Assembly: GCA_046757065.1 (NCBI GenBank)
Contig: JBHHXL010000002.1
Coordinates: forward strand, 1 to 59,114
Direction of reading: 5' to 3'
Origin: Anaerolineae bacterium
Lineage (GTDB): Bacteria; Chloroflexota; Anaerolineae; 4572-78; JBHHXL01
Length of the DNA stretch: 59,114 bases
In this document: one piece after another, positions 10,486 through 24,741 of the stretch
Position numbering within the stretch: position 1 is the first letter of the stretch
Layout of the letters: each line of letters starts with the position of its first letter
The notes under the pieces: generated by a model
The model's input: only the letters and a program-made list of their open reading frames with translations
What the model was told of the DNA's origin: nothing
Databases searched by the model: none
Made by a program: the position numbers and the translations under genes

Positions 10486-10571
10486 AGGGGTGCTCTCGAT
10501 TATCTATAGAGTCCGAAGAGTCCGACAGTCCCTGCGGGGCGACACCGACAATGAAAACAGCGGAGGCGGCC

Positions 10572-10699: not shown

Positions 10700-10736
10700 A
10701 TAGAAATTACGCAGTTGAATGTGTCACCGCAGAGAA

Positions 10737-11633: not shown

Positions 11634-11667
11634 CGGGTGGCTCCTCCCTCCTTATCATAAGGGTGTT

Positions 11668-12366
11668 TTAAGGTGTTCCGTCCTCAAAATCTTCATCGTC
11701 GAGATTGGTGAGTACCAGTTCGCCCGCCTCAACGATATGATCAACAAGCGTTTTCTGCGCCAACTCAATGTCGCCTGCGCGCAGGGCTTCGATAATCGGG
11801 TAATGGGTGTCAACGACGTCGTGCGGGTTATCGTACAGTTGGTCCTTGATGGAAAAAAATAGGCGTAGTTGGGCAGACATGCGTAGCCAGGCGCGGATCA
11901 ACCGGCTGTTGTGGGAGCTATCGACGATACGCTCGTGAAAAGCATGATCCCATTCGACCAACTGGGATATATCGCGCTCTTCTGCTGCCTGGCGCATCTT
12001 ATTTACCAACGCCTCAAGTTCGTCGATTTCGGCCGGTGTCATATGGGGTAAAGCAAGTTTGACGGCCAGGCTTTCCAGGGCAGTGCGTAGGGTGTAAATC
12101 TCCTCGATGTCCTGGCGCTTCAGTTTGATAACAAACGAACCCTTACGCGGAATGCTGACGACAAAGCCCTCTTCCTCCAGCAACCGGATGGCTTCACGAA
12201 CAGGTGCCCTGCTGGTGCCCATTTGCTCAGCAATGGCGGTTTCTACCAAACGAGCGCCGGGTTTGAGCGCCCCGGCCTCGATCGCCTGCCGAATGTTGTT
12301 AACCACTTGTTCCCGCAGCGATTTGTCATCAACCTGTCTGAAAATTTGGCTTGATTCAAAGGTCAT
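11668..12366 (-). CDS. GntR-family transcriptional regulator (FadR/FCD subfamily)
   Basis: 232 aa. Winged HTH AIAEQMGTSRAPVREAIRLLEEEGFVVSIPRKGSFV followed by an all-helical FCD-like C-domain. Confidence 0.9.
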   Translation of the reverse strand: MTFESSQIFRQVDDKSLREQVVNNIRQAIEAGALKPGARLVETAIAEQMGTSRAPVREAIRLLEEEGFVVSIPRKGSFVIKLKRQDIEEIYTLRTALESLAVKLALPHMTPAEIDELEALVNKMRQAAEERDISQLVEWDHAFHERIVDSSHNSRLIRAWLRMSAQLRLFFSIKDQLYDNPHDVVDTHYPIIEALRAGDIELAQKTLVDHIVEAGELVLTNLDDEDFEDGTP

Positions 12367-12386
12367 AGTTACATCCAGTGTTTTTA

Positions 12387-13133
12387 CTAGGCTGCGGACC
12401 AGCCTCCGTCCACATAAAAAACGCCGCCGGTAATATAGCTTGAGGCTGAAGAGGCGAGTAGAAGCGCAGCCCCTACAACCTCGTCAGGCTTACCCAAACG
12501 ACGCATCGGGGTGCGCTGGATGATGCTCTCTAATAGCCAGGGGGTATCTTCTAAACCGGCTGTCATATCCGTCTCGATGTAGCCCGGAGCGATGGCATTT
12601 ACCTGGACGTTGTATTCAGCCCACTCCTGGGCCAGAACGCGAGTGACCTGGAGCAGCCCTCCTTTGGCGGCGCAATACGCAACGAATTTTGGTAAGCCCG
12701 TGCTGGCTCCGATTGAGACAATGTTGATAACCTTGCCCTGGCGTTGCTCAACCATCACCCGCCCAACGGCCTGGCAACACAAAAAAGTGCCCGTTAGATT
12801 GACCGCCAAAATTCGGTTCCAATCCTTCTCTTTGAGTTTCAGCGCACGGGTGTACACCGGGCTAATCCCGGCATTGTTGATGAGCACATCGATCCGGCCG
12901 AACGCCTGCAAAGTTGCCCCGGCTAATGCGGAGACGTCAGATGATTGACTCACATCCGTCGGCACACCCAGACCACGCCGGCCGCGGGTTTTGACTTCCT
13001 CAACGACGCGTTCGACATCTTGCCGGGTGCGGCTCGCGATGACCACATCTGCGCCCGCCTCGGCTAAACCAAGCGCGAGCGACCGGCCTATGCCGCGGCT
13101 ACCCCCCGTCACAATGGCGACCTTGCCGTCCAA
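12387..13133 (-). CDS. Short-chain dehydrogenase/reductase (FabG-like)
   Basis: 248 aa with TGGSRGIG, NNAG and the catalytic YCAAK. Confidence 0.9.
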   Translation of the reverse strand: MDGKVAIVTGGSRGIGRSLALGLAEAGADVVIASRTRQDVERVVEEVKTRGRRGLGVPTDVSQSSDVSALAGATLQAFGRIDVLINNAGISPVYTRALKLKEKDWNRILAVNLTGTFLCCQAVGRVMVEQRQGKVINIVSIGASTGLPKFVAYCAAKGGLLQVTRVLAQEWAEYNVQVNAIAPGYIETDMTAGLEDTPWLLESIIQRTPMRRLGKPDEVVGAALLLASSASSYITGGVFYVDGGWSAA

Positions 13134-13190: not shown

Positions 13191-13248
13191 CGTCGACTGT
13201 CGACAGTCGACGTTATACAATTCTAACATGCCCGGAATCTTTTGTCAA
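13191..13248 (-). promoter_or_regulatory. Promoter P1(-) with operator O1
   Basis: On the minus strand: TTGACA (13248-13243), 17-nt spacer, TAGAAT (13225-13220), 7 nt, then the perfect 22-bp palindrome CGTCGACTGTCGACAGTCGACG (13191-13212). It lies 58 nt upstream of the SDR start. Confidence 0.7.
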
Positions 13249-13293
13249 CTCATCTATCGCTAAATTTCGAACCCAAGGCATGCTAATTGCTAA

Positions 13294-13350
13294 TTGACAG
13301 CCACAAATTATTATGCTAGAATAAAGATCGTCGACTGTCGACAGTCGACG
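13294..13350 (+). promoter_or_regulatory. Promoter P2(+) with operator O2
   Basis: TTGACA 13294-13299, 17-nt spacer, TAGAAT 13317-13322, 6 nt, then the perfect 22-bp palindrome 13329-13350. Confidence 0.6.
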
Positions 13351-13386
13351 TTGTGCAATTCTAGCACACCAAAAATCTTTTGTCAA
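13329..13386 (-). promoter_or_regulatory. Promoter P3(-) sharing operator O2 (face-to-face with P2)
   Basis: On the minus strand: TTGACA (13386-13381), 17-nt spacer, TAGAAT (13363-13358), 7 nt, then the same palindrome 13329-13350. Confidence 0.55.
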
Positions 13387-13602: not shown

Positions 13603-13659
13603 TTGACAACCACGAATTATTGTGCTAGAATAAAAATCGTCGACTGTCGACAGTCGACA
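13603..13659 (+). promoter_or_regulatory. Promoter P4(+) with operator O3
   Basis: TTGACA 13603-13608, 17-nt spacer, TAGAAT 13626-13631, 6 nt, then the palindrome at 13638-13659 (21 of 22 positions match). It lies 31 nt upstream of the CoA-ligase ATG. Confidence 0.7.
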
Positions 13660-13689
13660 AAACCCCGAGGATGGTTCATTTCACGCCAG

Positions 13690-15102
13690 ATGATGCCCAA
13701 GATCGTTCCCTCACCTATGTACTCTACCCGAAAGAGCGCTTCGCGGGAAACGTTGAAGCAAACCCAGTTGGCACGCTTGAAGCGCCAGTTGGATTATGTC
13801 TACCAGTGCAGCCCGTTTTACCGGATGCGGTTTGATGCGGCCGGGGTTTCCCCTGGCGATGTGCGCAGCCTGGCGGACATTCGCCGTCTGCCCCTGCTAA
13901 CAAAGGAGGATTTGCTGGCGGATCAGGAAGGGCAGCCTCCTTACGGGGCCCGGTTGTGTGTTTCGGAAGACAAGATTGCCATGCTGATTCTCACCAGCGG
14001 CACCTCCGGCGTCGGGCAGGAAGCGTATGCCATGACGCGGCTGGACGTCGAGTTTGGCGGCAGCGCCTGGACCAACTGGTACTATCGCTGCGGCCTGCGG
14101 AAGGGCGACCAGATTCTGCTCACCTGGCCGTTGGGCACCAATTCCGGGCCGCAAGGCGCTTTCCTGGGGGCCTACAAGCTCGGCGCCAATACTCTTCCCA
14201 TTGCCCCCTATGATAGCCGGTCCAAACTCCAAACTTATCTGCTGAAGTTCAACCCGGCCGGCATTGTGGTTACACCCGCCTATTTGTCCCACCTGACTGT
14301 TTTGTGCGAAGAATTGGGCATCGATCCAAAGCAACAATTCCGGAATCTTAAGGCGATTATGATTGCAACCGAGGCGTACCCAACCTCCTGGGCGCAACGA
14401 ATGGAGTCAATCTGGGGAACGCGGCTTTATGAACTCTATGGTAACACACAACAGGGAGGGCTGGCCGCCGGCTGTTGCGAAGCCGGCGTACTGACCGAAG
14501 ATGGCGGACGCGGCTGTTTGCACCTTGACGAGTGGAGCACCTTGTTTGAGGTGATCGACCCTGAAACTCACGAACCGGTGGCTCCCGGGGAAGTCGGCGA
14601 GCTGGTCCTGACCAACCTCTTCCGGGAAGGCTCGCCGCTGGTCCGTTTCCGGACGAAGGACCGGGTTCGATTCCTGCCCCACACCTCTTGCACTTGCGGC
14701 CGACCGACAGATTGCATAGAGGCCGGCACCGTCGCGCGCTACGATGATATGATGAAGATCCGCGCCCAAAATGTTTGGCCGGAAGCGGTCGATTCGCTTA
14801 TTCTCGCCCATCCCGAAATCGAAGAATACCAGGGCCGGGTGTATGTGGACGACCGCGGCCGGGAACAGGTGGAAGTGAAAATCGAATTCAAGGTTGGGTT
14901 GTTGACTGAAGAGGCCAAACGCCGATTGTTGAATAATCTTACGGCTGAACTTCGCCGTGGGGTTGGCATATCTATGGATCTTTCCGAAGCCCCGGCAGGT
15001 TCGCTGGAGCGTTTTGTTTTCAAAACCCGGCGTTGGACCGATGAACGCAAAAAGGGCCTGGAACGGGTGCTCCACACGGCCGCTGGTGCACGCAAGGAGT
15101 GA
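13690..15102 (+). CDS. Phenylacetate-CoA ligase / coenzyme F390 synthetase-family (PaaK-like) acyl-CoA ligase
   Basis: The ORF-track start at 13603 is a TTG inside the -35 hexamer. Family similarity begins near MMPK (13690): QLARLKRQLDYVYQCSPFYR, LTSGTSG. Confidence 0.85.
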   Translation: MMPKIVPSPMYSTRKSASRETLKQTQLARLKRQLDYVYQCSPFYRMRFDAAGVSPGDVRSLADIRRLPLLTKEDLLADQEGQPPYGARLCVSEDKIAMLILTSGTSGVGQEAYAMTRLDVEFGGSAWTNWYYRCGLRKGDQILLTWPLGTNSGPQGAFLGAYKLGANTLPIAPYDSRSKLQTYLLKFNPAGIVVTPAYLSHLTVLCEELGIDPKQQFRNLKAIMIATEAYPTSWAQRMESIWGTRLYELYGNTQQGGLAAGCCEAGVLTEDGGRGCLHLDEWSTLFEVIDPETHEPVAPGEVGELVLTNLFREGSPLVRFRTKDRVRFLPHTSCTCGRPTDCIEAGTVARYDDMMKIRAQNVWPEAVDSLILAHPEIEEYQGRVYVDDRGREQVEVKIEFKVGLLTEEAKRRLLNNLTAELRRGVGISMDLSEAPAGSLERFVFKTRRWTDERKKGLERVLHTAAGARKE

Positions 15103-15107
15103 GACTT

Positions 15108-15287
15108 ATGACCTCTGGCGAAATCATCGAGCGTTTGAAGGAGTTGCTGGCTGCCGTGCAAGAATTGGCTGCCCTGCGCGATCCTGCGCTTGAAGGAGAT
15201 ATACAAATCTTGCTCGCCGTTCTGGTGGACAAACTCCGCTACCTGGACCCGGCCGGCGACTATCCACACCAGGTGGAATACGAATGA
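15108..15287 (+). CDS. Small hypothetical protein (59 aa), translationally coupled
   Basis: AAGGAG lies 8 nt upstream of the ATG at 15108. The stop overlaps the next start (ATGA 15284-15287). No recognisable domain. Confidence 0.4.
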   Translation: MTSGEIIERLKELLAAVQELAALRDPALEGDIQILLAVLVDKLRYLDPAGDYPHQVEYE

Positions 15288-16174
15288 CCCTACGACCCTT
15301 TGCCTACGTTGAACCGAAACAGTTGGACGAGGCGGTGGCGGCCCTCGTCGAATACAGCTCCGAGGCTATGCTGCTGGCCGGCGGGACCGATCTGCTGGTC
15401 ATGATGAAATCCGGGCTTGTCAGCCCGAAGGCGATCATCAATTTGAAGCGTGTCCCGGGGCTGGCCGGAATCACCACCGGGAATGGAGATGTGCGCCTGG
15501 GGACGCTGACGACGTTCCGGGCGATTGAAACTTCGGCCCTGCTGCAGGAGCGATGCCCGGCCTTGCCAGAGGCGGCTAAGTGGCTGGGCTCGGTCCAGAT
15601 CCGCCACCTGGCTACGCTGGGCGGCAATGTTTGCCGGGCCTCGCCCAGCGCCGAGTCCGCGCCGCCGCTGATTGCGCTGGGCGCTCAGGCTCACATCGTG
15701 GGGCCGGACGGCGAGCGCGCGCTGCCGCTGGATGAATTCTTCACCGGTCCGGGAACCACGGTTCTGGCCCCCGGAGAGATTCTGACGGAAATCCGCGTGC
15801 CAGTGCCCGCCGCCAGGTCGGGCGCTGCCTACTTGCGGCGGAGCATCCGGCCTTTGATGGACCTGGCCATCGTTAACGTGGCCGCGTCGGTCACGCTCGA
15901 TGAGGCGGGCCAGTCGTTCGTCGATGCCCGTATCGCGCTTGGCGCTGTGGCGCCCACGCCAATCCGGGCCCGCCAGGCCGAGGCGGCGCTGCGCGGCCAA
16001 CCGGCAACCGAGACCGTTCTGGAAGCGGCTGCCGCGCTGGCCGCCGAAGAAGCCCGACCGATCACCGATGTGCGCAGCACCGCCGATTACCGGCGGGCAA
16101 TGGTGCGTCTTCTGACGCGACGCGCCCTTGAACGGGCGCTCGCCCGTGCTACGGAGGACTCTCTGCCAACATGA
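15284..16174 (+). CDS. Xanthine dehydrogenase-family FAD-binding (medium) subunit
   Basis: 296 aa with [27 protein letters not shown] and [12 protein letters not shown]. There is no Cys-rich insertion of the 4-hydroxybenzoyl-CoA reductase type. Confidence 0.9.
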
Positions 16175-16659
16175 AGCTACTCGTCTCGCTAAACGTAAAC
16201 GGACAAACTTACGACCTGGCCGTTGCTCCACACCGGACGCTTCTGGACGTCTTGCGCGAAGATATAGGGCTGACCGGAACAAAACGCGGTTGCGATGACG
16301 GCGACTGCGGCGCGTGTACGGTGCTGATCGACGGCGAGCCGGTCACGTCGTGCCTGGTGCTGGCCGTGGATGGCCAGGGTAAGGCCATCACGACCATCGA
16401 GGGCCTGGCCGTCGACGGCCAGTTGCACCCGGTACAGCAAGCGTTTATCGACTATGGCGGCCTGCAATGTGGTTTTTGCACGCCGGGGATGATTCTGGCC
16501 GCCAAACACCTGCTCGAACAAAATCCAAATCCTACGGATGAGGAGATCAGTCTTGGCCTGGCCGGTAATTTGTGCCGCTGTACGGGGTACGTACAGATAC
16601 TGGAAGCGGTCGCGGCCTGCCGGGAAGACAATGGTGTTGTGGCGGAGGATTCTCAATGA
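16171..16659 (+). CDS. Xanthine dehydrogenase-family [2Fe-2S] small subunit
   Basis: 162 aa with [11 protein letters not shown] and CGFCTPG...CRCTGY cluster motifs. Overlaps both neighbours by 4 nt. Confidence 0.9.
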
Positions 16660-19070
16660 AACAGGAACTCAAGGTCGTTGGAAAACCGCTGCCGCGCGTG
16701 GACGGCTATGCCAAAGTCACCGGCCAGGCGGAGTTCACGGTTGACGTCAACTTACCGGGTATGCTGCACGGCAAAATCCTGCGCAGCCCCCATCCCCATG
16801 CTCGCATCCTCAACATCGACACCAGCGCCGCCGAACGCCTGCCCGGTGTGAAAGCGGTGATCACCGGCCGCGATACGGCGGATATGCGCTATGCCTTTGT
16901 GGATACGCCGCGCTATCCCGCCGACGAGTACCCCCTGGCTCAAGACAAGGTGCGCTACATCGGCGACGAGGTGGCCGCGGTGGCTGCGGTGGACCTCGAA
17001 ACGGCTCAGGAGGCGCTTGACCTGATCCAGGTCGATTACGAAATCCTGCCGGCCGTGTTCGATCCGTTCGAGGCTATGAAACCCGAGGCGCCCGCGATCC
17101 ATGAGACCCAATACGAAGGCACATCGATTTGGGAAGAATGGGGCGCGAAGAAGACCCGTCGCTCCCAGGCGAACGAGACGGTCAATAATGTCAGCGGGCG
17201 CACCGTCATCACCTATGGCGATGCCGACGAAGCCTTTGCCTCTGCCGACTACATCCGGGAAGATCACTTCGAAACCAGTTCGACGGCTCATTGTGCCCTG
17301 GAACCCCACGCTGCTGTTGCCCACGTGGATCCGAACGGCCAGTTGCACCTGTGGCTGTCGAGCATGGGCATCTATTACAAGCGTTACGTGATCGCCAAGG
17401 TGCTCAAAATGCCCACCAGCCAGGTCCGCCTGCACAAAGTCTACGTCGGCGGCGCGTTCGGCGGCAAAATGGACGTCTTCCCTTACGAAATCTGCACCGC
17501 AATCCTGGCCCAAAAGTCTGGCCGGCCGGTCAAGATCGAGTTAACGCGCGAAGAGGTGTTCACCACAACCCGCATCCGCTTTCCTACCTACATTGATATT
17601 AAAACCGGCGTAACGCGCGACGGGCGGATACTGGCCCAACACATCCGCACCGTCGTCAACAACGGCGCGTTTATGGGCACCGGGCCGGTGGTGGTATTTC
17701 TGTTCCACGGCTGGACGGCCCCGGTCTACCGCGTGAGCAACATGAATTACGAGGGCGTGTCGGTCTGGACAAACATTCCGGTCGGTGGTCCGCAGCGCGG
17801 CCATGGCGCGCCCCAGATTCGCTTCGCCATTGATTCGCAACTCGATATGATCGCCGAAGACCTTGGCCTTGATCCGGCTGAGATGATGCTGAAGAATGTG
17901 CGACGCATTGGCGACGTGCTGCCCAACGGCGACGTGCTGAAAAGCTGTGGTCTCACCGACTGCATCAAACAGGCTGTGGCCGTCTCCGGCTGGAAAGAGA
18001 AGCGCGGCAAGCCGGGCAGCAATCGCGCCGAACGCGGCCAGGGGACAAAACGGCGCGGGGTCGGCATTTCCACCACCACCATGATCTCCGGCGCGCCGTA
18101 TTATCCCTTTGCCTCGGCCGGTATTGTGCAGCTCGACGACGACGGCGCGGCGACCCTCATTTCGGGCGTCGTCGAAATGGGACAGGGCGCTGAGACGACG
18201 CTGGCGATGGTGGTGGCGGAAGTGCTTGGCCTGCGCCTGGAGGATATCCGCATCGTCTCCGGCGATAGCGAGCAAACACCGGTCGATATGGGCAGCTTCC
18301 TGAGTGGAGGCGCGCTCGTCACCGGCGACGCGATCCGGCTCGCTGCCGAAGATGCCAGAAAGCAATTGCTGGAAATCGCCTCGGAACGGCTCGATGCAAT
18401 GGTCGAGGAACTCGAGTTGAGCGATGGCCGGGTGTGTGTGCAAGGCCGGCCTGATCGTTGTATGACCATTGGCGAAGTCGTGCGATACAGCATCAAGGAA
18501 AACGGCCAGCCTATTATCGGCCGGGGGTTCCGCAAAATCCTGACTGCGGCCGAGCACTACCCGAGCCTGGCCAAGGGCACCGGGCGCTGGACGGACGCCT
18601 ATGGCTTCAACGCCCAGGTGGCCGAGGTCGAAGTGGATACTGAGACCGGCCAGGTCACCCTTATCCGCGCCACGACTTTTCACGATTGCGGCCAGCCGCT
18701 CAACCCCCAGATCGTGGAGGGGCAGGTTTGCGGCTGCGTCTCGACCGGGCAGGGCCAGGCGTTGACCGAGCAACTCATTCTTGAAAATGGCCGCGTCCTG
18801 AACCCCTCCTTCGCCGACTACCGCTTGCCGATCACGCTGGACACCCCCGATACTGCCGGCGATGCGGTTGATTCGTATGAGCCGGCCGGCCCGTTCGGGG
18901 CCAAAGAGGTAGGCGAGGGCGTTCTGGCCCAGACGTTGGCCGCCATCGCCAACGCCGTCTACGATGCCGTTGGCGTGCGCATCACCAGCCTGCCCATCAC
19001 CCCGGAAAAGGTGCTGGCAGCGTTGGAGGAGAAAAAGGAGCGCGAATCCTATGCCACTCAGAACCGGTGA
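16656..19070 (+). CDS. Xanthine dehydrogenase-family molybdopterin-binding large subunit
   Basis: 804 aa from the ATG at 16656 (ATGA overlap with the small subunit). N-terminus [17 protein letters not shown], and the GGAFGGK motif. Confidence 0.9.
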
Positions 19071-20481
19071 ACAATTCCTTGAAAGTTTGCGTGATGGCCG
19101 TCAGGTGTACATCCTCGGCGAGCGCGTTGAAGATGTAACCGCGCATCCGGTGTTGGGGGTTCCAGCGCGCCACTCGGCGCTGGAATTCGACCTGGCGCAC
19201 AAGCCCGAACTGTCTGATTTAACCCTTGCCACTTTGGAAACGACCGGCGAATCGGTCAGCCGCTACTACCAACTTCCCCGCACCCCGGAAGACTTGCTCA
19301 AGCGCCGGGATTTGATAGAGTACGGCTCTGAACTTGGGCTGTCTATGCCGCTCTTCATCAAGGCAATTGGTAGTGACTGCTTGAATGCCCTCCATCTCAT
19401 TTGTGATGCCCTGGACCGAGATCAGGGCACAGATTATTCAACGCGTGTCGCCGATTATCGTAGCTACTGCGCCACGAACGACCTGGCGCTGGCCGGGGCC
19501 ATCACCGATGTCAAGGGGGACCGGTCCAAACGGCCCTCGCAGCAGGCCCATCCCGACTACTACGTGCGCATCCTGGCCCGCCAGGCGGACGGCATTGTCG
19601 TCAGCGGCGCAAAGACCAACATCACCGCAGCCCCCTACGTGAACGAGTATGTCGTGCTGCCCACCCGGGCGATGGGGCCTGACGATGAAGACTTCGCCGT
19701 TTCATTCGCCGTGCCGGTGAACGCCCGGGGCGTGAAGGTAATCGCCCGCCCGGACGGGGTCAAGAACCAATTTGATTTTCCGCTCAGCTCGCGCCATTTC
19801 CACATCGAGGGGACGATCATCTTCGACGAAGTCTTCGTGCCCTGGGAGAGGGTATTCTTGGCCGGCGAATGGCGCTACGCCGGCGCGCTGGCCAACACCT
19901 TCGCCACCTGGCATCGCTTTACCGGCCTGGCCTACAAGGGCCCGGGGGCTGACCTGTTGCTGGGGATGGCGCAGCTCATCGCCGAGTACAACGGCGTGGC
20001 CGGGGCCTCGCATATCAAGGCCAAGATCACCCAACTCATTCAGTACGCCGAGACGATCCGGGTCTTCGCCCGTGAAGCGGCCCGCGAGGCCGAGTATTAC
20101 GCCGGCCTGGCCTGCCCCAACGCTTTGCTGGCGAATATGGGCAAGTACATCTTCGCCAGCGGCTGGCACGATGCCATCCGCGCGGTGCAGGAGATCGCCG
20201 GCGGGACGACCGTGACCGGGCCCTCGAGCCGCGATTTTGAAAACCCGGAGACCCGTGACTACATCGAGCGGTATTTTGGCGGGGTGGATGGCGTCCCAAC
20301 CGAGCACCGGCTCCGCGCCTTCAAGTTGATTATGGATATGACGGCCAGTGAATACGCCGGCAACTGGTCCCTGGCCACGCTCCACGGCGAGGGTTCGCTG
20401 GAAGCGCAGCGGCTTTCGATGTACCGGCAATACGATATTGAACGCTGTGTGAAGCTGGCCAAGCAGGCAGCGGGAATTTAG
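19051..20481 (+). CDS. 4-hydroxybutyryl-CoA dehydratase / HpaB-family protein (AbfD-like)
   Basis: 476 aa from the ATG at 19051. AITDVKGDRSKRPSQQAHPDYYVRI..GIVVSGAK and HGEGSLEAQR closely resemble AbfD as I recall it. The Cys ligands of the AbfD Fe-S cluster appear to be absent. Confidence 0.8.
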   Translation: MPLRTGEQFLESLRDGRQVYILGERVEDVTAHPVLGVPARHSALEFDLAHKPELSDLTLATLETTGESVSRYYQLPRTPEDLLKRRDLIEYGSELGLSMPLFIKAIGSDCLNALHLICDALDRDQGTDYSTRVADYRSYCATNDLALAGAITDVKGDRSKRPSQQAHPDYYVRILARQADGIVVSGAKTNITAAPYVNEYVVLPTRAMGPDDEDFAVSFAVPVNARGVKVIARPDGVKNQFDFPLSSRHFHIEGTIIFDEVFVPWERVFLAGEWRYAGALANTFATWHRFTGLAYKGPGADLLLGMAQLIAEYNGVAGASHIKAKITQLIQYAETIRVFAREAAREAEYYAGLACPNALLANMGKYIFASGWHDAIRAVQEIAGGTTVTGPSSRDFENPETRDYIERYFGGVDGVPTEHRLRAFKLIMDMTASEYAGNWSLATLHGEGSLEAQRLSMYRQYDIERCVKLAKQAAGI

Positions 20482-20505
20482 TGAAGAAAGGTTACTACTC
20501 AGGCT

Positions 20506-21408
20506 ATGTTTCAACTTAGCTCACAGGAGATTAGAAAGGAAACAACTTGCGTGAGCCAAAACGCTAAATCGAAACTGCGCAACGTTGGAAAGTACTACCA
20601 GTCCGGAGACTGGAGCGATTATTGGCGCACGGCCATCAGCTACGTGGCCCCCCAAAAGGTGCTCATTCGGGGCTACCCCATCGAGGAGATTTGCGAGCAC
20701 CTGACCTACGCCGAGATGTGCTGGCTGACCATCCGGGGTGAGTTGCCGACGCAGGCGCAGGCGCGGGTGATGGACGCCCTGCTGTGCTGCATGCCGGATC
20801 ACCAGTTTGTGGCCTCCCACACTCCGGCGGCGCGCTTCACCGCCTCCGCCTTCCCCGAATCGCCCATTCCCGGCATCGCCAGCGCGGTGCTCACGATGGG
20901 CTCCAACACGGTCTCGCCCCAAGAGTCGGCCAAGATCATCCTGGCCGCCTGCGAATTGATGGAGTCGGAGGGCCTGAGCAAGGAAGACGCCGCGCGGGAG
21001 ATGATCAAGCGTTATCTCGCCGCCGGGCGGCGCATCCCCGGCCTGGGCCACCCGACTCACAAGCACGATGACATGCGCGCCTCCGCGCTGCGGCGGGTTA
21101 CCGAGGCGCAGGGCTTGTGGGGCGAGAAGTGCCAGGTCTACGAGTGTATCCACCGGGCATTCATCGAAACAACGGGCAAATCCCTGCCGATCAACATTGA
21201 CGGGATGATGGCGGCGGTGATGACCGAACTCGGCTTTGACCCGCTGGAAATGGCCGGCATCGGCGCGCTGTCTGTTCTGCCCGGCGTCATCGCCCACGTC
21301 GTCGAAGAGATTCGCGAGGGTGTGCCTCTGCGCATCATCCCCGATGAGCTGGGTTCGCAGTACACCGGCCAACCTGAGCGGCATTTGCCGCATACCCAGG
21401 AGACCTAG
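20506..21408 (+). CDS. Short citrate-synthase-fold protein (citryl-CoA-lyase-like)
   Basis: 300 aa with GLGHPTHKHDDMRA (compare GFGHRVYK..DPR), NIDG and PGVIAHVVEE. The HGGA histidine segment is replaced by MGSNT. The start is uncertain. Confidence 0.7.
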   Translation: MFQLSSQEIRKETTCVSQNAKSKLRNVGKYYQSGDWSDYWRTAISYVAPQKVLIRGYPIEEICEHLTYAEMCWLTIRGELPTQAQARVMDALLCCMPDHQFVASHTPAARFTASAFPESPIPGIASAVLTMGSNTVSPQESAKIILAACELMESEGLSKEDAAREMIKRYLAAGRRIPGLGHPTHKHDDMRASALRRVTEAQGLWGEKCQVYECIHRAFIETTGKSLPINIDGMMAAVMTELGFDPLEMAGIGALSVLPGVIAHVVEEIREGVPLRIIPDELGSQYTGQPERHLPHTQET

Positions 21409-21855
21409 ATGTTCACCGTTCGCGGCTTCAACGACGTCGACGTCGGCCACACCTTCAGCCATAGCGTCACCGTGACCGAGGCCCATCTGGTCCTGGCCGC
21501 CGGGCTGTTTGGCGACTTTCACCCGCTGCACACCAACGAGGAGTATGCCCGGCAAAGTCGCTTCGGCCACCGCATCACCCACGGCCCGTTGAACGTTGGC
21601 ATTATGGCCAGCGTGCTCGGCAATTACTTCGCCGGGGCTGCCGGGCCTTACCTGGAGCAGGTCGTTCGTTTCAAGGGGCCTGTAGCGCCCGGTGACACGG
21701 TGACCACGACCTGGAAGATCGTTGAAAAAATCCCGAAAGCGAAACTCGAAGGCGGTATCATCCGCCTGGAAGTGCAGATGCACAATCAGGATAAGGTATT
21801 GATTCTCGAGGGCGAGGGCAAGATTATCTTGTATAACGATGCCCGGCCAAGGTAG
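21409..21855 (+). CDS. MaoC-like (R)-specific enoyl-CoA hydratase/dehydratase
   Basis: 148 aa, hot-dog motif GDFHPLHTNEEYA..FGHRITHG. Confidence 0.85.
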   Translation: MFTVRGFNDVDVGHTFSHSVTVTEAHLVLAAGLFGDFHPLHTNEEYARQSRFGHRITHGPLNVGIMASVLGNYFAGAAGPYLEQVVRFKGPVAPGDTVTTTWKIVEKIPKAKLEGGIIRLEVQMHNQDKVLILEGEGKIILYNDARPR

Positions 21856-21861
21856 GTTCTC

Positions 21862-22386
21862 ATGGAGTTCTGGGAAGTTTTGCAAAAACGCCGTAGCGTC
21901 CGGGAATTTGACCCGGAGCGGGATGTTCCGTTGGAGTCGATCAATCGGCTGTTGGAAGCGGCTATCCTGGCCCCGACTGCCGGGGATCGCCAGCCCTGGC
22001 ACTTTGTCATCGTTCGCAAACCCAGCGTCAAGGAAGCCATCGCCCGCACAGCCCTGCGTCAGGATTTTATCGCCACTGCCCCCGTCGTCATCGTCGTCTG
22101 TGGTGAGCCTGAACGGTCCGGGGCGCGCCGGGGCCAGGAAATGGCCGAGCTCCATACGGTCCAGGATGTTTCCGCAGCGGTGGAGAATATCCTGCTTGCG
22201 ACCACCGACCTGGGGCTTGCCTCATGTTGGGTCAGCGCCCTGCGAGAGGATGAGGTGCGCCAGGCGCTCGACCTGCCACCGGCTTTCCGGCCGCTGGCAA
22301 TTGTTCCCATTGGGTTTGCTGCCAGACGACCGGGGGCGCGCCCCCCACGCCGGCCGGTAGACGCCGTAACGACCTTTATCGACTAG
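21862..22386 (+). CDS. Nitroreductase-family flavoprotein
   Basis: 174 aa with RRSVREF and APTAGDRQPWHFVIV. Confidence 0.85.
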   Translation: MEFWEVLQKRRSVREFDPERDVPLESINRLLEAAILAPTAGDRQPWHFVIVRKPSVKEAIARTALRQDFIATAPVVIVVCGEPERSGARRGQEMAELHTVQDVSAAVENILLATTDLGLASCWVSALREDEVRQALDLPPAFRPLAIVPIGFAARRPGARPPRRPVDAVTTFID

Positions 22387-22389: not shown

Positions 22390-22505
22390 ACTACTCAGCC
22401 TTAAGGTGCGACGCACTTCATTTGCACCAAAACCGTCGTTTGCTTACCGCATCAAACTGCAAATCAGGGCGATTCCGGGCACGAAGTGCGTCGCACCTGA
22501 GTAGT
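22390..22505. repeat. Inverted-repeat intergenic element (ACTACTCAG..AGGTGCGACGCACTTC arms)
   Basis: The 5' arm is AACTACTCAG-CCTTAAG-GTGCGACGCACTTC and the 3' arm is GAAGTGCGTCGCACCTGAGTAGT. The 5' arm carries a 7-nt CCTTAAG insertion. Same arm core as 58874-58957. Confidence 0.6.
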
Positions 22506-22536
22506 ACTCCTTCAAGGTGATTATGATAAATTGTAG

Positions 22537-22599: not shown

Positions 22600-23394
22600 A
22601 TGCTACAAGACAAGACCAGACGGATGCGGCGCATCTTTCGCGAAGACGGGCGGGCCGTGATTATCGCTATGGAACACGGCGCGTTTTTCGGCGTCCAGCC
22701 CGGCTTCGAGAATCCCAGAGACGCAATCAGGCAGGTGATCGCCGGCGGCGCGGATGCGATCATGGCCACCGTTGGCCTGGCCAGGAATTTTGCCGAGGAA
22801 CTGGCCCCGGTCGGGATGATCCTGCGCGTAGATGGCGGGGTGACGCGGCTGGGATCGCGCATCTGGCGCGGCAACCTGGTCTATGGAGCGGAAATGGCGC
22901 TGCGCCTGGGCGCTGATGGGGTGGTGGCGATGGGCTTCCCCGGCTGCGAAAACGAAGACCAGAATTTGAAGTACCTGACCGATCTCATCGAGCAGTGCGC
23001 TCGCTGGGGCCTGCCGGTGATGGCTGAGATGTTGCCCCGGGGCTTTGAAGGCGGCGACGATGCCCGCGCCCCCGAGACAATGCGCATGGTGATGCGCATC
23101 GGCGCCGAGCTGGGCGTTGACCTGATCAAGACCCAGTACACCGGCGACAGGGAGAGCTTTCGGGCGGCCACCGAAAGTTGCTTTGTTCCCGTCGTCGTTC
23201 TGGGCGGTTCTAAAGTAAAGGACGACGCCGCCGTGTTGCAAATGGTGCGCGACTCGATAGACGCCGGTGGCCGGGGTGTGGCTATGGGGCGCAACATTTG
23301 GGGCCACCGGCATCCGGCGAAGATGACGGCGGCTATTGTTGCCATCGTCCACGACGATGCATCGGTCGAAGAAGCACTCGCCTTGCTTGGTTGA
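22600..23394 (+). CDS. DhnA/LsrF-type class I aldolase (DeoC/LacD family)
   Basis: 264 aa with the Schiff-base lysine context VDLIKTQYTGD, and VVVLGG. Confidence 0.8.
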   Translation: MLQDKTRRMRRIFREDGRAVIIAMEHGAFFGVQPGFENPRDAIRQVIAGGADAIMATVGLARNFAEELAPVGMILRVDGGVTRLGSRIWRGNLVYGAEMALRLGADGVVAMGFPGCENEDQNLKYLTDLIEQCARWGLPVMAEMLPRGFEGGDDARAPETMRMVMRIGAELGVDLIKTQYTGDRESFRAATESCFVPVVVLGGSKVKDDAAVLQMVRDSIDAGGRGVAMGRNIWGHRHPAKMTAAIVAIVHDDASVEEALALLG

Positions 23395-23407
23395 AAGAAG
23401 GGGAAAA

Positions 23408-24460
23408 ATGACATCCAACGGCAAAATGCGACGGGCTCTTCTAACAGGCCCAAGACAGATCGAGTTCGAGGAGATTCCTGTCGGCCTTCCCGCGCCGGAC
23501 GAGGTGCTGGTCAGGATACACTCCTGTGCTATCTGCACCTGGGAAAAACGAGCTTACACCGGGGCCGACCAGCGCTTCTACCCGCTGCTCGGCGGGCACG
23601 AGATCTCCGGCGTGGTCGAGGCTATCGGCGAGGACGCCGCAGACGACCTGGAGGTGGGCGACCACGTCTCGGTTTCCGGGCTGACCCGCTGCGGCAAGTG
23701 CTATTCGTGCCGCATGGGGCGCGACAATCGCTGCGATAACACCTGGCAAAAGGGCTTTAAGCCGGGCACACCCATCGGCCCGGGCGGCCTGGCCACGCAC
23801 AAGATGGCCAAAGCTTACCAGGTATTCAAAGTGCAGGCAGATACCGACCTGGTTGAGGTCTCCCTGGCGGAGCCGCTGGCCTGCGTCTTGCGCAGCATCA
23901 AAAAAGCGCGGGTTGAGGCGGGAGACTTCGTCGTCGTCGTCGGTAGCGGCGTGATGGGGGTTTTGCACCTGATGCTGGCGAAAAGGCGCGGGGCCACGGT
24001 CATCGTCAGCGAGCCGGACGAAGGTCGCCGCCAGCGGGCGCTGGACTTTGGCGCCGATCACGTGCTCGACCCTGCCGAAGACGACCTGGTTGAGCGCGTC
24101 AAAGAGATCACCGGCGACCGCGGCGCACAAGAGATTTTCGACGCCGTCGGCCGAGGCCCCATCCTGGAGAGCGCCATCGGCGCGTTGGGCAAGGGTGGGC
24201 GGCTGCACGTTTACGCCCGCGTCTATCCCAAGGGCAGCACTATCAGCATCGACCCGAATATCTTTCACGAGAAAGAGATCGTCCTGACCGGCACGATGAG
24301 CCAAAGCCGCGAGGATTATCTACAAGCAGCCGAGATGATCGCCCGCCACGCCATTGACCTGCGGCCAATTATTTCGGGGACTTACCCGATGGATCAAATG
24401 AAAGAAGCGTTTGAGGCTTCGACCCGGTTGGAGAATTACCGCATTGTCGTCACGATGTAG
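23408..24460 (+). CDS. Zinc-dependent medium-chain alcohol dehydrogenase
   Basis: 350 aa from the ATG at 23408. GHEISGVV, structural-zinc Cys cluster CGKCYSCRMGRDNRC, and VVVVGSGVMG. Confidence 0.85.
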   Translation: MTSNGKMRRALLTGPRQIEFEEIPVGLPAPDEVLVRIHSCAICTWEKRAYTGADQRFYPLLGGHEISGVVEAIGEDAADDLEVGDHVSVSGLTRCGKCYSCRMGRDNRCDNTWQKGFKPGTPIGPGGLATHKMAKAYQVFKVQADTDLVEVSLAEPLACVLRSIKKARVEAGDFVVVVGSGVMGVLHLMLAKRRGATVIVSEPDEGRRQRALDFGADHVLDPAEDDLVERVKEITGDRGAQEIFDAVGRGPILESAIGALGKGGRLHVYARVYPKGSTISIDPNIFHEKEIVLTGTMSQSREDYLQAAEMIARHAIDLRPIISGTYPMDQMKEAFEASTRLENYRIVVTM

Positions 24461-24482
24461 CTTATGGCACAAGGCCATTTCT

Positions 24483-24616: not shown

Positions 24617-24741
24617 TCTAATCACCAATTGGACTCTGGCGAATCGAGGAGTGAGCACGCCTACGTGCGAACGGTCCCATGCGCGAAGCGTACGGCACGT
24701 GGGCATACCTTACTCCACAAGTAACGCTCGCGGAGGCGTTG

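What the first reader, a model, noticed from the sequence alone, without database searches (positions are those of the whole stretch)
13690..22386. Uncharacterised CoA-thioester pathway: PaaK-like ligase, XDH-family molybdoenzyme, AbfD-like protein, short citrate-synthase-like protein, MaoC and nitroreductase
Nine co-directional genes have start/stop overlaps through most of the operon. In order:
- acyl-CoA ligase;
- 59-aa unknown protein;
- FAD, 2Fe-2S and Mo subunits of the molybdoenzyme;
- AbfD/HpaB-family protein;
- citrate-synthase-fold protein;
- MaoC dehydratase;
- nitroreductase.

**Established precedents.** XDH-family enzymes that act on CoA thioesters include 4-hydroxybenzoyl-CoA reductase and 2-furoyl-CoA dehydrogenase. 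The FAD subunit here lacks the Fe-S insertion of the former.

**Inference.** A (hetero)aromatic or heterocyclic carboxylate is activated to its CoA ester and hydroxylated by the molybdoenzyme. It is then processed by hydratase/dehydratase and a C-C lyase-type citrate-synthase-fold enzyme. I do not recognise this gene combination from any described pathway.
Basis: inference. Interest (0 to 1): 0.75.

Follow-up and report, generated by a model that had tools for sequence, protein, structure and literature searches.

The report
Uncharacterised anaerobic acyl-CoA degradation operon
An uncultured anaerobic Chloroflexota bacterium carries a tightly packed, repressor-controlled nine-gene operon that most likely breaks down a ring-shaped, probably nitrogen-containing acid as its CoA ester, using unusual versions of known enzymes; no published pathway matching it was found.

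Summary

- **Boundaries.** A near-consensus promoter plus a 22-bp palindromic operator lies upstream and is conserved in three relatives. A repeated hairpin element follows the last gene.
- **Molybdoenzyme.** It is closest to 4-hydroxybenzoyl-CoA reductase, but its FAD subunit lacks that enzyme's 38-residue Cys-rich Fe-S insertion.
- **"AbfD-like" protein.** It lacks three of the four Fe-S ligands. It belongs to a large cluster-free clade.
- **Citrate-synthase-fold protein.** It keeps the catalytic His/His/Asp. It lacks an Arg (pig R401 equivalent, from memory) that citryl-CoA lyase and citrate synthases conserve.
- **Conservation.** The full cluster occurs only in a narrow Anaerolineae clade (about 80-89% identity). 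At greater distance the modules recombine, yet ligase + 59-aa protein + Mo subunit, and lyase + MaoC, stay linked, each sometimes with an AbfD-family gene.
- **Nitrogen hints.** Relatives insert RidA or an isochorismatase-family amidase. One relative shares the divergent operon (caprolactamase-like lactamase, carbamoyltransferase). In the window an ABC transporter promoter carries the operator.

Best reading: an O2-independent CoA-thioester pathway for an N-heterocyclic acid. The substrate is unknown and no described pathway matched. It is a new variant of a known kind, of moderate interest.

The parts
13603..13660 (+). Promoter-like site (TTGACA-17-TAGAAT, 13603-13631) followed by a 22-bp perfect palindrome operator (13637-13660), about 30 nt upstream of the ligase start
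   Evidence: The same promoter + GTCGACTGTCGACAGTCG operator lies upstream of the ligase gene in L097, L005 and L167.
13693..15102 (+).
   Evidence: Pfam AMP-binding + AMP-binding_C_2. TIGR02155 PaaK scores 193.5 bits against a cut-off of 646. Best PDB match is PaaK 2y27, 180 bits.
15108..15287 (+). 59-aa conserved small protein of unknown function (motif DPxLEGDIQIIL..DKLRYLDP)
   Evidence: No Pfam or NCBIfam hit. 66-69% identical, same length and same position after the ligase in L005 and L082. Family of 8 representatives.
15284..16174 (+). FAD-binding subunit of the XDH-family molybdoenzyme, without the [4Fe-4S] insertion
   Evidence: Pfam FAD_binding_5 + CO_deh_flav_C. Alignment A3 shows that the 38-residue Cys-rich insertion of L003 is absent.
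16171..16659 (+). Two-[2Fe-2S] subunit
   Evidence: Pfam Fer2 + Fer2_2. NCBIfam hits all fall below equivalog cut-offs.
16656..19070 (+). Molybdopterin subunit, nearest to the 4-hydroxybenzoyl-CoA reductase alpha subunit
   Evidence: TIGR03194 scores 705 bits against a cut-off of 994.55. PDB 1rm6_A scores 478 bits. The GGAFGGK and GAKEVGEG motifs are present.
19051..20481 (+). AbfD/HpaB-family flavoprotein of a clade without Fe-S cluster ligands
   Evidence: PDB AbfD 6vjr/1u8v score 265/256 bits, HpaB 182 bits. Substitutions are C99->L, C103->A, C299->Y, Y296->G and E455->A, while H292 and E257 are kept. The same holds in 120 homologues.
20551..21408 (+). Short citrate-synthase-fold (citryl-CoA-lyase-like) C-C lyase (285 aa; alternative start at 20506)
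   Evidence: Pfam Citrate_synt. NF004869 scores 213.3 against a cut-off of 212. PDB 6hxp scores 132 bits. Catalytic His/His/Asp are kept, while the Arg of 'GRVPG' is replaced by Val.
21409..21855 (+). MaoC-type (R)-specific enoyl-CoA hydratase
   Evidence: Pfam MaoC_dehydratas. The hydratase-2-like motif FGDFHPLHTNEEYA is visible in the sequence. Relatives of the lyase at 54-61% identity often have a MaoC-family gene on the same contig.
21862..22386 (+). Small nitroreductase-family flavoprotein
   Evidence: Pfam Nitroreductase. Best PDB matches are uncharacterised nitroreductases from structural genomics. Weak NCBIfam hits include BluB, the FbiB C-terminal domain and malonic semialdehyde reductase.
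22390..22508 (+). Long hairpin (REP-like repeat) directly after the operon, likely marking the 3' boundary
   Evidence: MFE -54.9 kcal/mol, z = -5.3. A second copy lies at 58874-58957. A promoter-like TAGAAT follows before the next gene.
13191..13386 (.). Two further exact operator copies (13191-13212, 13329-13350) with one + strand and two - strand near-consensus promoters: the divergent control region
   Evidence: 0 matches expected by chance.
4392..13133 (-). Divergent operon, a candidate part of the same system. Genes: SDR (12387-13133), GntR/FCD regulator (11668-12366), DHDPS-family (10737-11633), hydantoinase B-like (8725-10485), octopine-DH-like (7607-8728), OTCase-like carbamoyltransferase (6458-7462), hydantoinase A-like (4392-6461)
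   Evidence: Pfam. HyuA/HyuB best match caprolactamase CapA/CapB at 740/378 bits, below the cut-off of 1000. The same seven genes in the same order are divergent from the ligase operon in L167.
31460..34728 (+). Promoter-like site + fourth operator copy (31500-31519, 1 mismatch) + RBS in front of two ABC permease genes and an NMT1/THI5-type binding protein: candidate uptake system
   Evidence: The binding protein's best PDB relative is the pyrimidine (FAMP)-binding protein ThiY, 3ix1, 98 bits.
22600..28271 (+). Syntenic downstream genes, with membership in the pathway uncertain. Genes: DeoC-type aldolase, Zn-ADH, 4Fe-4S ferredoxin, aldehyde:ferredoxin oxidoreductase, ThiS/MoaD-like, EamA exporter
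   Evidence: Pfam. Conserved after the operon in L005, L088, L097 and L167. In L097 they are separated from it by an inserted sulfatase + SPASM gene pair, and in the window by a 213-nt gap with its own promoter-like site.

Best explanation
This is a repressor-controlled catabolic operon of an anaerobic, uncultured Anaerolineae (Chloroflexota) bacterium. It most likely degrades a ring-containing, probably N-heterocyclic, carboxylic or acetic acid as its CoA thioester, without O2.

**Proposed steps (all inferred from family chemistry)**
1. The PaaK-type ligase makes the CoA ester.
2. The three-subunit XDH-family molybdoenzyme descends from the 4-hydroxybenzoyl-CoA reductase lineage but lacks the ferredoxin-entry [4Fe-4S] insertion. 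It works in the hydroxylase direction and introduces a water-derived OH next to a ring heteroatom. The product tautomerises to a lactam or lactone.
3. The cluster-free AbfD-family flavoprotein converts the 4-oxygenated or 4-aminated acyl-CoA into a 2-enoyl-CoA. It could do so by delta-isomerisation, by flavin-only gamma-elimination (as BbuA does with gamma-butyrobetainyl-CoA), or by alpha,beta-dehydrogenation.
4. MaoC hydrates the 2-enoyl-CoA to a 3-hydroxyacyl-CoA.
5. The citrate-synthase-fold lyase cleaves that into acetyl-CoA plus a carbonyl compound. The logic is dehydrogenase/hydratase/lyase, as used wherever a tertiary alcohol blocks beta-oxidation.
6. The nitroreductase-family flavoprotein reduces a reactive product or serves flavin redox.

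Ring-nitrogen release is helped in relatives by RidA or an isochorismatase-type amidase. It is probably also served by the divergent operon (ATP-dependent lactamase, carbamoyltransferase).
For: **Shown here**
- Gene order, tight coupling and domain content.
- One operator-bearing promoter upstream, conserved in L097, L005 and L167, and a structured boundary element downstream.
- The whole cluster is conserved on at least five other contigs.
- At 69% identity a rearranged cluster keeps FeS - ligase - 59-aa protein - Mo subunit - XdhC. It is followed by a different AbfD-family gene that has the Fe-S ligands.
- The FAD subunit has no Fe-S insertion, whereas the Desulfosporosinus relative has one.
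- The AbfD-like protein lacks the cluster ligands.
- The lyase keeps its catalytic residues.
- A MaoC-family gene lies on the same contig in 19 of 80 lyase-anchored loci, many of them short. The longer ones are beta-oxidation-type clusters, one with a genuine AbfD.
- Nitrogen hints: RidA in L005 and L097, and an isochorismatase-family protein in L167, sit in the same slot. The divergent caprolactamase-like and carbamoyltransferase genes are conserved in L167. A ThiY-like binding protein lies behind the same operator.
- Anaerobic lifestyle: two aldehyde:ferredoxin oxidoreductases and MttB/MtmB-family genes in the window.

**Established chemistry used**
- Dehydrogenase -> hydratase -> tertiary alcohol -> lyase in anaerobic naphthalene degradation (PMC11659651, PMC12016498).
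- Flavin-only C4 elimination by BbuA (PMC8364193).
Against: - No substrate, activity or expression data exist.
- All nine genes co-occur only in close relatives (about 77-89% identity), where synteny alone is weak evidence.
- At 52-60% identity the AbfD-like, lyase and Mo proteins each sit in different contexts.
- The nearest relatives of the Mo subunit outside the clade look like reductases: one has the Fe-S insertion, another sits next to HGD-D (benzoyl-CoA-reductase-type) genes.
- The window itself has no RidA, amidase or XdhC in the operon.
- The role given to the nitroreductase is vague.
- The regulatory link to the divergent operon and the transporter rests on shared DNA motifs only.
Confidence: 0.5

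Rival explanations
1. It is an ordinary 4-hydroxybenzoyl-CoA reductase system. A phenolic acid is activated and reductively dehydroxylated to benzoyl-CoA, and the other genes are unrelated passengers.
For: - The Mo subunit's best family and best solved structure are the 4-HBCR alpha subunit.
- Relatives at 60-66% identity have the Fe-S insertion or lie next to HGD-D (benzoyl-CoA-reductase-type) genes.
- JGI annotation names relatives 4-HBCR.
Against: - All three subunits score below the equivalog cut-offs (705 vs 994.55; 137.5 vs 404.55; 199.9 vs 257.8).
- The defining [4Fe-4S] insertion is absent in the window and in all cluster-bearing relatives.
- The ligase is PaaK-type.
- No benzoyl-CoA reductase or dienoyl-CoA pathway genes are in the 59-kb window.
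Confidence: 0.1
2. The HpaB-family protein and the nitroreductase form an O2-dependent two-component flavin monooxygenase (oxygenase + flavin reductase), so the operon is an aerobic hydroxylation pathway.
For: - Pfam HpaB_N and HpaB give strong hits.
- The protein lacks the Fe-S cluster of AbfD.
- From general knowledge, nitroreductase-family proteins can act as flavin reductases.
Against: - The sequence is clearly nearer to AbfD than to HpaB (265 vs 182 bits), and HpaB-1 scores 207 against a cut-off of 480.
- Clade relatives sit among CoA-ester and beta-oxidation genes without any reductase partner.
- The genome neighbourhood carries oxygen-sensitive tungsten or molybdenum aldehyde:ferredoxin oxidoreductases.
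- In L082 the corresponding position holds an Fe-S AbfD.
Confidence: 0.1
3. The operon is a mosaic with no single pathway. A ligase + molybdoenzyme module for one substrate was fused by rearrangement to a generic hydratase/lyase module serving another.
For: - The modules occur separately elsewhere.
- L089 combines close orthologues of the lyase and MaoC with another ligase and an OYE-type reductase.
- An IS30-like fragment and contig breaks lie right upstream of the ligase in relatives.
Against: - Translational coupling runs through the operon, and there is only one conserved operator-bearing promoter.
- An AbfD-family gene joins both modules independently: L082 with the Mo module and L094 with the lyase/MaoC module.
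- The order is retained in five lineages despite variable insertions.
Confidence: 0.15
4. It is an anaerobic version of the 2-furoate (Trudgill) pathway: furoyl-CoA ligase + furoyl-CoA dehydrogenase, with different downstream steps.
For: From established knowledge, 2-furoyl-CoA dehydrogenase is the known XDH-family hydroxylase that acts on a CoA ester (reviewed in PMC3223595, listed). The combination here of a ligase with an insertion-free Mo-enzyme resembles it.
Against: - No orthology test was possible because no reference sequence was on hand.
- The Trudgill route needs only a hydrolase after hydroxylation, not AbfD-like, MaoC and lyase enzymes.
- RidA, the amidase, the lactamase, the carbamoyltransferase and the ThiY-like binding protein point to nitrogen chemistry.
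Confidence: 0.08

Closest known systems
4-Hydroxybenzoyl-CoA reductase (HcrABC of Thauera aromatica, PDB 1rm6)
   Same: It has the same three-subunit XDH-family architecture. The alpha subunit is the best match among solved structures (478 bits) and among NCBIfam families. Its substrate is a CoA thioester supplied by a ligase.
   Different: - The FAD subunit lacks the [4Fe-4S] insertion that feeds low-potential electrons.
- All equivalog cut-offs are missed.
- The ligase is PaaK-type.
- No benzoyl-CoA pathway genes lie nearby.
- The likely direction is hydroxylation, not dehydroxylation.
2-Furoyl-CoA dehydrogenase / furoate pathway (HmfABCDE)
   Same: The concept is the same: acid -> CoA ester -> water-dependent Mo hydroxylation of the heteroaromatic ring.
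   Different: The downstream genes are entirely different (AbfD-like, CS-fold lyase, MaoC, nitroreductase instead of a hydrolase). Accessory genes suggest nitrogen chemistry. The host is an anaerobe. Sequence orthology was not tested.
[quoted passage not shown]
   Same: It has the same fold and is the closest solved relative (256-265 bits over the full length). H292 and E257 are conserved.
   Different: C99, C103 and C299 (cluster ligands), Y296 and E455 are all replaced. The same is true across a large clade, so radical dehydration via [4Fe-4S] is excluded.
Citryl-CoA lyase (Hydrogenobacter thermophilus CCL, PDB 6hxp) / citrate synthase
   Same: It shares the short architecture limited to the citrate-synthase C-terminal domain. 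The catalytic His/His/Asp and the Arg nine residues after the GH motif are conserved.
   Different: - The Arg that CCL and citrate synthases conserve before the PG(L/W)xAH motif is Val here (its role in oxaloacetate binding, as pig R401, is recalled from memory).
- No citryl-CoA synthetase genes are present.
- A MaoC hydratase gene often lies on the same contig, inside beta-oxidation-type clusters.
Dehydrogenase - hydratase - lyase sequence at a tertiary alcohol in anaerobic naphthalene degradation (ThnO, hydratase, ThnQS)
   Same: [quoted passage not shown]
   Different: The proteins are non-homologous: an AtuA-like lyase and a canonical ACAD there, a citrate-synthase-fold lyase and an AbfD-family flavoprotein here.

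Membership tests
4-Hydroxybenzoyl-CoA reductase | The alpha, beta and gamma subunits reach the NCBIfam equivalog cut-offs (TIGR03194/03195/03193) | tested here: not met
   705.2 vs 994.55; 137.5 vs 404.55; 199.9 vs 257.8
4-Hydroxybenzoyl-CoA reductase | Cys-rich [4Fe-4S]-binding insertion of about 40 residues in the FAD subunit | tested here: not met
   The window subunit has 2 Cys and no insertion. A 38-residue insertion is present in the L003 relative only.
4-Hydroxybenzoyl-CoA reductase | Genomic association with benzoyl-CoA reductase or dienoyl-CoA pathway genes | tested here: not met
   None in the 59-kb window apart from a 122-aa HGD-D fragment.
XDH/xanthine-oxidase family molybdenum hydroxylase | FAD_binding_5/CO_deh_flav_C, Fer2/Fer2_2, and Ald_Xan_dh_C/MoCoBD_1/MoCoBD_2 modules, with the Moco-site Gly motif and the C-terminal catalytic Glu | tested here: met
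   Pfam. GGAFGGK and GAKEVGEG are visible in the sequence, and the latter aligns with HcrA GAKEASEG.
XDH/xanthine-oxidase family molybdenum hydroxylase | XdhC-type cofactor-insertion chaperone encoded nearby | tested here: inconclusive
   Absent from the window by tblastn. Present next to the cluster in L097 and L082.
2-Furoyl-CoA dehydrogenase (HmfABC) | Orthology to HmfA/B/C and an HmfE-type hydrolase in the cluster | not tested
   No reference sequences were available in the tools used. No ECH-family hydrolase is in the operon.
4-Hydroxybutyryl-CoA dehydratase (AbfD) | [4Fe-4S] ligands C99, C103, H292, C299 (1u8v numbering) | tested here: not met
   L, A, H, Y at these positions. All 120 best homologues also lack the three Cys.
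4-Hydroxybutyryl-CoA dehydratase (AbfD) | Active-site Y296, E257, E455 | tested here: not met
   G, E, A. Genuine AbfD-type proteins in the fetched loci show the signature C-E-H-Y-C-E.
HpaB-type two-component flavin monooxygenase | Reaches the HpaB equivalog score, and is nearer to HpaB than to other family branches | tested here: not met
   TIGR02309 scores 206.9 vs 480.2. PDB HpaB scores 182 bits, below AbfD at 265 bits.
Citryl-CoA lyase | Short CS-C-terminal-domain protein with catalytic His, His, Asp | tested here: met
   H84 (at least 90% conserved), H167 and D217 invariant in 30 family members. Aligned to 6hxp. NF004869 scores 213.3 vs 212.
Citryl-CoA lyase | Full set of oxaloacetate/citrate-binding arginines (pig CS R329, R401, R421'; residue roles and numbering recalled from memory) | tested here: not met
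   The Arg nine residues after the GH motif (R176) and R261 are invariant in the family; their equivalence to pig R329 and R421' is by motif spacing only. The Arg of 'GRVPG' in 6hxp and of 'ARISGW' in citrate synthase is Val in the window protein and not Arg in the family consensus.
Citryl-CoA lyase | Partner citryl-CoA synthetase (succinyl-CoA-synthetase-like) genes | tested here: not met
   No such genes among the window ORFs scanned.
Phenylacetate-CoA ligase PaaK | Equivalog score, and a paa operon context | tested here: not met
   193.5 vs 646.3. No paa genes nearby. Only the PaaK-type fold (AMP-binding_C_2) is shared.
MaoC (R)-specific enoyl-CoA hydratase | Single hot-dog MaoC domain with the hydratase-2 Asp/His motif | tested here: met
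   Pfam 70.8 bits. The motif G-D-F-H-P-L-H-x5-A is visible in the translation.

The most novel reading that the evidence does not exclude
The two divergent operons plus the transporter form the first described anaerobic, CoA-thioester-based route for an N-heteroaromatic acid. Candidate substrates are imidazole-, thiazole-, pyrimidine-, indole- or pyridine-type acetic or carboxylic acids.

In this reading:
- a descendant of 4-hydroxybenzoyl-CoA reductase has been turned into a water-dependent hydroxylase;
- a cluster-free descendant of the radical enzyme AbfD carries out flavin-only isomerisation or gamma-elimination (ring C-N cleavage);
- a citrate-synthase-fold enzyme acts as a general 3-hydroxyacyl-CoA lyase that releases acetyl-CoA;
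- the ureido or lactam remainder is opened by an ATP-dependent lactamase and harvested by a carbamoyltransferase.
Probability: 0.25. Interest if true: 0.8.

Novelty: new variant of a known kind. Interest (0 to 1): 0.55.

Why it matters
- **Environmental gap.** Anaerobic fates of N-heterocyclic acids such as auxin-like, histidine-, thiamine- or nicotinate-derived compounds are poorly known. Anaerolineae are abundant but mostly uncultured.
- **New functions for three enzyme families.** If the model holds, it assigns functions to three large, misannotated families:
  - 4-HBCR-like molybdoenzymes without the Fe-S insertion;
  - cluster-free "4-hydroxybutyryl-CoA dehydratases" (the search returned over 4,000 family homologues at E <= 1e-40, and all 120 best of them are cluster-free);
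  - short "citryl-CoA lyases" that lack the conserved Arg and often have a MaoC gene on the same contig.
- **A new solution to an old block.** It would add a citrate-synthase-fold answer to the tertiary-alcohol problem in beta-oxidation.
- **Annotation.** Current automatic names (4-HBCR, 4-hydroxybutyryl-CoA dehydratase, citryl-CoA lyase) can feed false calls of aromatic degradation and of CO2-fixation cycles in metagenome studies.

Tried and rejected
1. **Genome scan (GTDB species representatives) with the AbfD-like protein.** It returned only relatives at 43% identity or less. None had the lyase, MaoC or nitroreductase nearby, so no named or cultured carrier of the cluster was found.
2. **Literature searches.** I searched for the gene combination, for the anaerobic indoleacetate (iaa) pathway, for furoyl-CoA dehydrogenase in anaerobes, for 4-HBCR/PaaK in Chloroflexi, for N-heteroaroyl-CoA names, and for cluster-free AbfD homologues. 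No matching pathway turned up. The iaa paper mentions no molybdoenzyme or hydantoinase in the text that was searched.
3. **The small proteins next to the Mo genes in the Desulfosporosinus and Tectomicrobia relatives.** They showed no evident similarity to the 59-aa protein on inspection (not tested by alignment).
4. **A "true citryl-CoA lyase" role (tricarballylyl/aconityl/citryl-CoA route from isonicotinate).** I considered this but downgraded it, because the conserved Arg is missing and the thioester would sit on the wrong carboxyl (chemistry by inference).
5. **Rfam on the control region.** It gave only chance-level hits.
6. **Exact operator search in all fetched loci.** It found nothing. 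Reading the upstream sequences directly then showed slightly diverged copies in three relatives.
7. **Structure prediction and fold search.** They were not used. Sequence-level tests already settled the membership questions, and a model would not identify the substrate.

Full report
**1. Observation**

The interval holds nine co-directional genes exactly as described. They are the ligase (13693-15102), a 59-aa ORF (15108-15287), the FAD subunit (15284-16174), the 2Fe-2S subunit (16171-16659), the Mo subunit (16656-19070), an AbfD/HpaB-family protein (19051-20481), a short citrate-synthase-fold protein (20551-21408, alternative start 20506), MaoC (21409-21855) and a nitroreductase (21862-22386).

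Pfam and NCBIfam confirm every family assignment. Junction spacings are +5, -4, -4, -4, -20, +69, 0 and +6 nt, followed by 213 nt before the next gene.

The Mo subunit's exact sequence recurs on two further contigs with the same downstream genes.

The 59-aa ORF is a real gene. It keeps its length, its position after the ligase and 66-69% identity in relatives whose other proteins are 68-80% identical. It belongs to a family of only 8 representatives in a library of 1.8 billion proteins.

**2. Operon boundaries and regulation (new)**

The 557-nt region upstream of the ligase holds three exact copies of a 22-bp perfect palindrome, CGTCGACTGTCGACAGTCGACG, where none is expected by chance. Each copy abuts a near-consensus TTGACA-17-TAGAAT promoter. 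Two promoters face the ligase operon and two face the divergent genes.

The promoter and operator closest to the ligase (13603-13660) are conserved upstream of the ligase gene in three relatives, L097, L005 and L167. This is a phylogenetic footprint for the transcription start.

A fourth copy of the operator (1 mismatch) sits behind a promoter-like site and ahead of an RBS, in front of ABC permease genes at 31500-31548. The core TGTCGACA fits GntR/FadR-type sites (general knowledge), and a GntR/FCD regulator is encoded in the divergent operon.

Directly after the nitroreductase stop there is a 119-nt hairpin (z = -5.3). It is a repeat with a second copy at 58874-58957. A separate promoter-like site then precedes the DeoC gene.

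The nine genes are therefore very probably one transcription unit. This is inferred from sequence; no transcript data exist.

**3. What the proteins are and are not**

*Organism.* The closest database proteins come from Anaerolineae/Chloroflexota MAGs. The window also encodes two aldehyde:ferredoxin oxidoreductases and MttB/MtmB-family methyltransferases, which points to an anaerobe.

*Molybdoenzyme.*
- The large subunit is nearest to the 4-hydroxybenzoyl-CoA reductase alpha subunit: 705 bits against an equivalog cut-off of 994.55, and 478 bits to PDB 1rm6_A.
- The FAD subunit lacks the Cys-rich insertion. That insertion is present in the subunit encoded next to a 60%-identical Mo subunit in Desulfosporosinus sp. 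BRH_c37.
- In 4-HBCR that insertion binds the [4Fe-4S] cluster through which ferredoxin electrons enter (established knowledge, Unciuleac et al. 2004). Its absence in the window and in every cluster-bearing relative argues for the hydroxylase direction (inference).

*AbfD-like protein.*
- It is closer to AbfD (256-265 bits) than to HpaB (182 bits).
- The residue-by-residue alignment to 1u8v shows C99->L, C103->A, C299->Y, Y296->G and E455->A. Only H292 and E257 are retained.
- All 120 best homologues (48-89% identity) share this pattern, with Tyr invariant at position 299. Genuine AbfD-type sequences in the fetched loci show C-E-H-Y-C-E.
- It is therefore a member of a large, cluster-free sister clade, not a radical dehydratase.

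*Citrate-synthase-fold protein.*
- It matches citryl-CoA lyase 6hxp (132 bits) and sits right at the cut-off of NCBIfam subfamily NF004869.
- The catalytic His/His/Asp are conserved across 30 family members, as are two further invariant arginines that by motif spacing correspond to pig citrate synthase R329 and R421' (pig numbering and roles from memory).
- The Arg of 'GRVPG' in 6hxp and of 'ARISGW' in citrate synthase (R401 equivalent by the same mapping) is Val here. A substrate different from citryl-CoA is likely.

*MaoC.* It has the hydratase-2-type Asp/His motif.

*Ligase.* It is PaaK-type but far below the PaaK cut-off (193 vs 646).

**4. Conservation**

*Full cluster.* It occurs in these loci:
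- L005/L006 (Chloroflexi MAG GCA_019456165.1, Mo subunit 81% identical);
- L097 (89%);
- L167 (85%);
- L088 and L087, which are partial.

Protein lists show roughly 14-25 distinct 90%-identity clusters at 77% identity or more for the Mo, AbfD-like and lyase proteins, followed by a gap to 69% or less.

*Variable accessory genes.* RidA sits between the Mo and AbfD-like genes in L005 and L097. An isochorismatase-family protein occupies that slot in L167. XdhC and a 3-hydroxyacyl-CoA dehydrogenase lie upstream in L097.

*At 69% identity (L082).* The order is FeS - ligase - 59-aa - Mo - XdhC. A different AbfD-family protein follows that does have the Fe-S ligands.

*Further out, the contexts differ.*
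- A Mo relative at 66% identity lies beside HGD-D (benzoyl-CoA-reductase-type) genes.
- One at 60% identity lies with a PaaK-like ligase and an ABC transporter.
- AbfD-like relatives at 52-57% identity lie among ligases and beta-oxidation genes.

*Lyase-anchored metagenome scan.* Eighty loci were returned. A MaoC-family gene lay on the same contig in 19 of them, many of which are short. Nearly all of those 19 are among the roughly 30 loci with 54% identity or more. The genes sit inside DUF362 - ACAD - lyase - thiolase - OYE-like reductase - ACAD - MaoC clusters. One (L094) has a genuine AbfD and one (L106) an isochorismatase-family gene. L089 joins close orthologues of the lyase and MaoC to another PaaK-like ligase and an OYE-type reductase.

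*Conclusion.* The stable units are (i) ligase + 59-aa + Mo-enzyme and (ii) lyase + MaoC. An AbfD-family gene joins each unit independently. The nine-gene combination is a lineage-specific assembly.

**5. A larger system**

The divergent operon runs SDR - GntR - DHDPS-family - HyuB - octopine-DH-like - OTCase-like - HyuA. It is conserved in the same order opposite the ligase operon in L167, which also has operator-like GTCGAC repeats in its intergenic region.

- HyuA and HyuB are nearest to the ATP-dependent caprolactamase CapA/CapB (740/378 bits, below cut-off).
- The carbamoyltransferase misses the OTC and putrescine-carbamoyltransferase cut-offs.
- The binding protein behind the fourth operator is nearest to the pyrimidine-binding ThiY (98 bits).

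With the RidA and amidase slot genes (weakly RutC- and RutB/BiuH-like), these point to lactam, ureido or enamine intermediates, and so to a nitrogen heterocycle. This is circumstantial.

**6. Mechanism (inference)**

The proposed sequence is:
1. The ligase forms the CoA ester.
2. The Mo-enzyme hydroxylates the ring next to the heteroatom, giving a lactam tautomer.
3. The cluster-free AbfD-family flavoprotein produces a 2-enoyl-CoA, by isomerisation, flavin-only C4 elimination or dehydrogenation.
4. MaoC adds water.
5. The citrate-synthase-fold lyase releases acetyl-CoA and a carbonyl product.

Precedents:
- BbuA eliminates trimethylamine from C4 of gamma-butyrobetainyl-CoA with flavin only (PMC8364193).
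- Anaerobic naphthalene degradation uses dehydrogenase -> hydratase -> tertiary alcohol -> lyase, with an unrelated AtuA-like lyase (PMC11659651, PMC12016498).

If the ligase keeps the arylacetate preference of its family, the hydratase/lyase pair would cut the acetyl-CoA side chain off a dearomatised ring. If it takes a ring carboxylate, they would act after ring opening. The data cannot decide between these.

The downstream DeoC - ADH - ferredoxin - AOR - ThiS - EamA block is syntenic in all relatives. However, it is separated from the operon by its own promoter-like site in the window and by a sulfatase/SPASM insertion in L097. An aldehyde-handling role is possible but unproven.

**7. Comparison and novelty**

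None of the searches found a described pathway with this composition, or any catabolic N-heteroaroyl-CoA route.

The concept of acid -> CoA ester -> Mo hydroxylation is known from 2-furoyl-CoA dehydrogenase. The enzyme variants and their combination are not known. I class it as a new variant of a known kind.

The three automatic names (4-HBCR, 4-hydroxybutyryl-CoA dehydratase, citryl-CoA lyase) are each contradicted by a tested defining feature. This matters for metagenomic inference of aromatic degradation and CO2-fixation cycles.

**8. Limits**

- No cultured carrier was found; the genome scan returned only distant relatives.
- Orthology to HmfABC could not be tested.
- There are no expression or biochemical data.
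- The regulon is inferred from DNA motifs.

Overall confidence in the general model is about 0.5, and the substrate is open.

Noticed in passing
window 13134-13689: The control region is internally duplicated. A 62-nt promoter+operator unit occurs twice (13288-13349 and 13597-13658, 94% identical), and a 74-nt operator + reverse-promoter unit also occurs twice (13178-13251 and 13316-13389). Between the copies lies a segment bounded by a perfect 19-nt inverted repeat (13404-13422 / 13567-13585) that encloses two hairpins. It is possibly a small inserted element. Rfam gave only chance-level hits.
   Followed up: partly
window 31460-31548: A fourth copy of the operator palindrome (1 mismatch) lies between an ABC ATPase gene and the permease genes, preceded by TTGACA-17-TACTAT and followed by AAGGAGG-ATG. 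The binding protein of this transporter (33574-34728) is nearest to the thiamine-pyrimidine-binding protein ThiY.
   Followed up: partly
window 22390-22508 and 58874-58957: A REP/MITE-like long hairpin repeat with arms AGGTGCGACGCACTTC. One copy sits directly after the operon, the other near the end of the window.
   Followed up: partly
window about 13511-13529 and about 22537-22555: Two palindromes share a TTTTTAA centre (AGTGTGTTTTTAACACACT and GTCACGTTTTTAACGTGAC). The second overlaps the promoter-like site of the DeoC gene. They may be sites for another regulator.
   Followed up: no
L097 2050-2500; L005 and L006 start: In L097 an IS30-like transposase fragment lies directly upstream of the ligase promoter. 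Two independent assemblies (L005, L006) break about 195 nt upstream of the ligase. This suggests a repeat or rearrangement hot spot at the operon's 5' edge.
   Followed up: no
window 39318-40787 and 42569-43933: MttB-family (457 bits to the TMA methyltransferase model, below cut-off) and MtmB-family genes are read as uninterrupted ORFs, so they are apparently non-pyrrolysine homologues. They lie next to an ornithine-cyclodeaminase-family gene (40613-41797), an Ldh_2-family dehydrogenase (35143-36243) and an HpcH aldolase (36137-37054).
   Followed up: no
window 2672-4402 (-): A second aldehyde:ferredoxin oxidoreductase gene directly follows the hydantoinase A-like gene at the far end of the divergent operon.
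   Followed up: no
window 44656-54280: A patch of defence or mobile-type genes: an HGD-D fragment (44656-45024), a type I restriction HsdM methylase (45352-46779), DUF559 (46932-47303) and an AbiEii toxin (53372-54280).
   Followed up: no
L009/L010 (Syntrophorhabdaceae-type contigs): A cluster-free AbfD-like protein (52% identical) sits in a large cluster with AcnX, LarA-like proteins, an AMP-ligase-SDR fusion, a TRAP transporter and a 2-oxoacid:ferredoxin oxidoreductase. This is another uncharacterised CoA-ester pathway that uses this clade.
   Followed up: no
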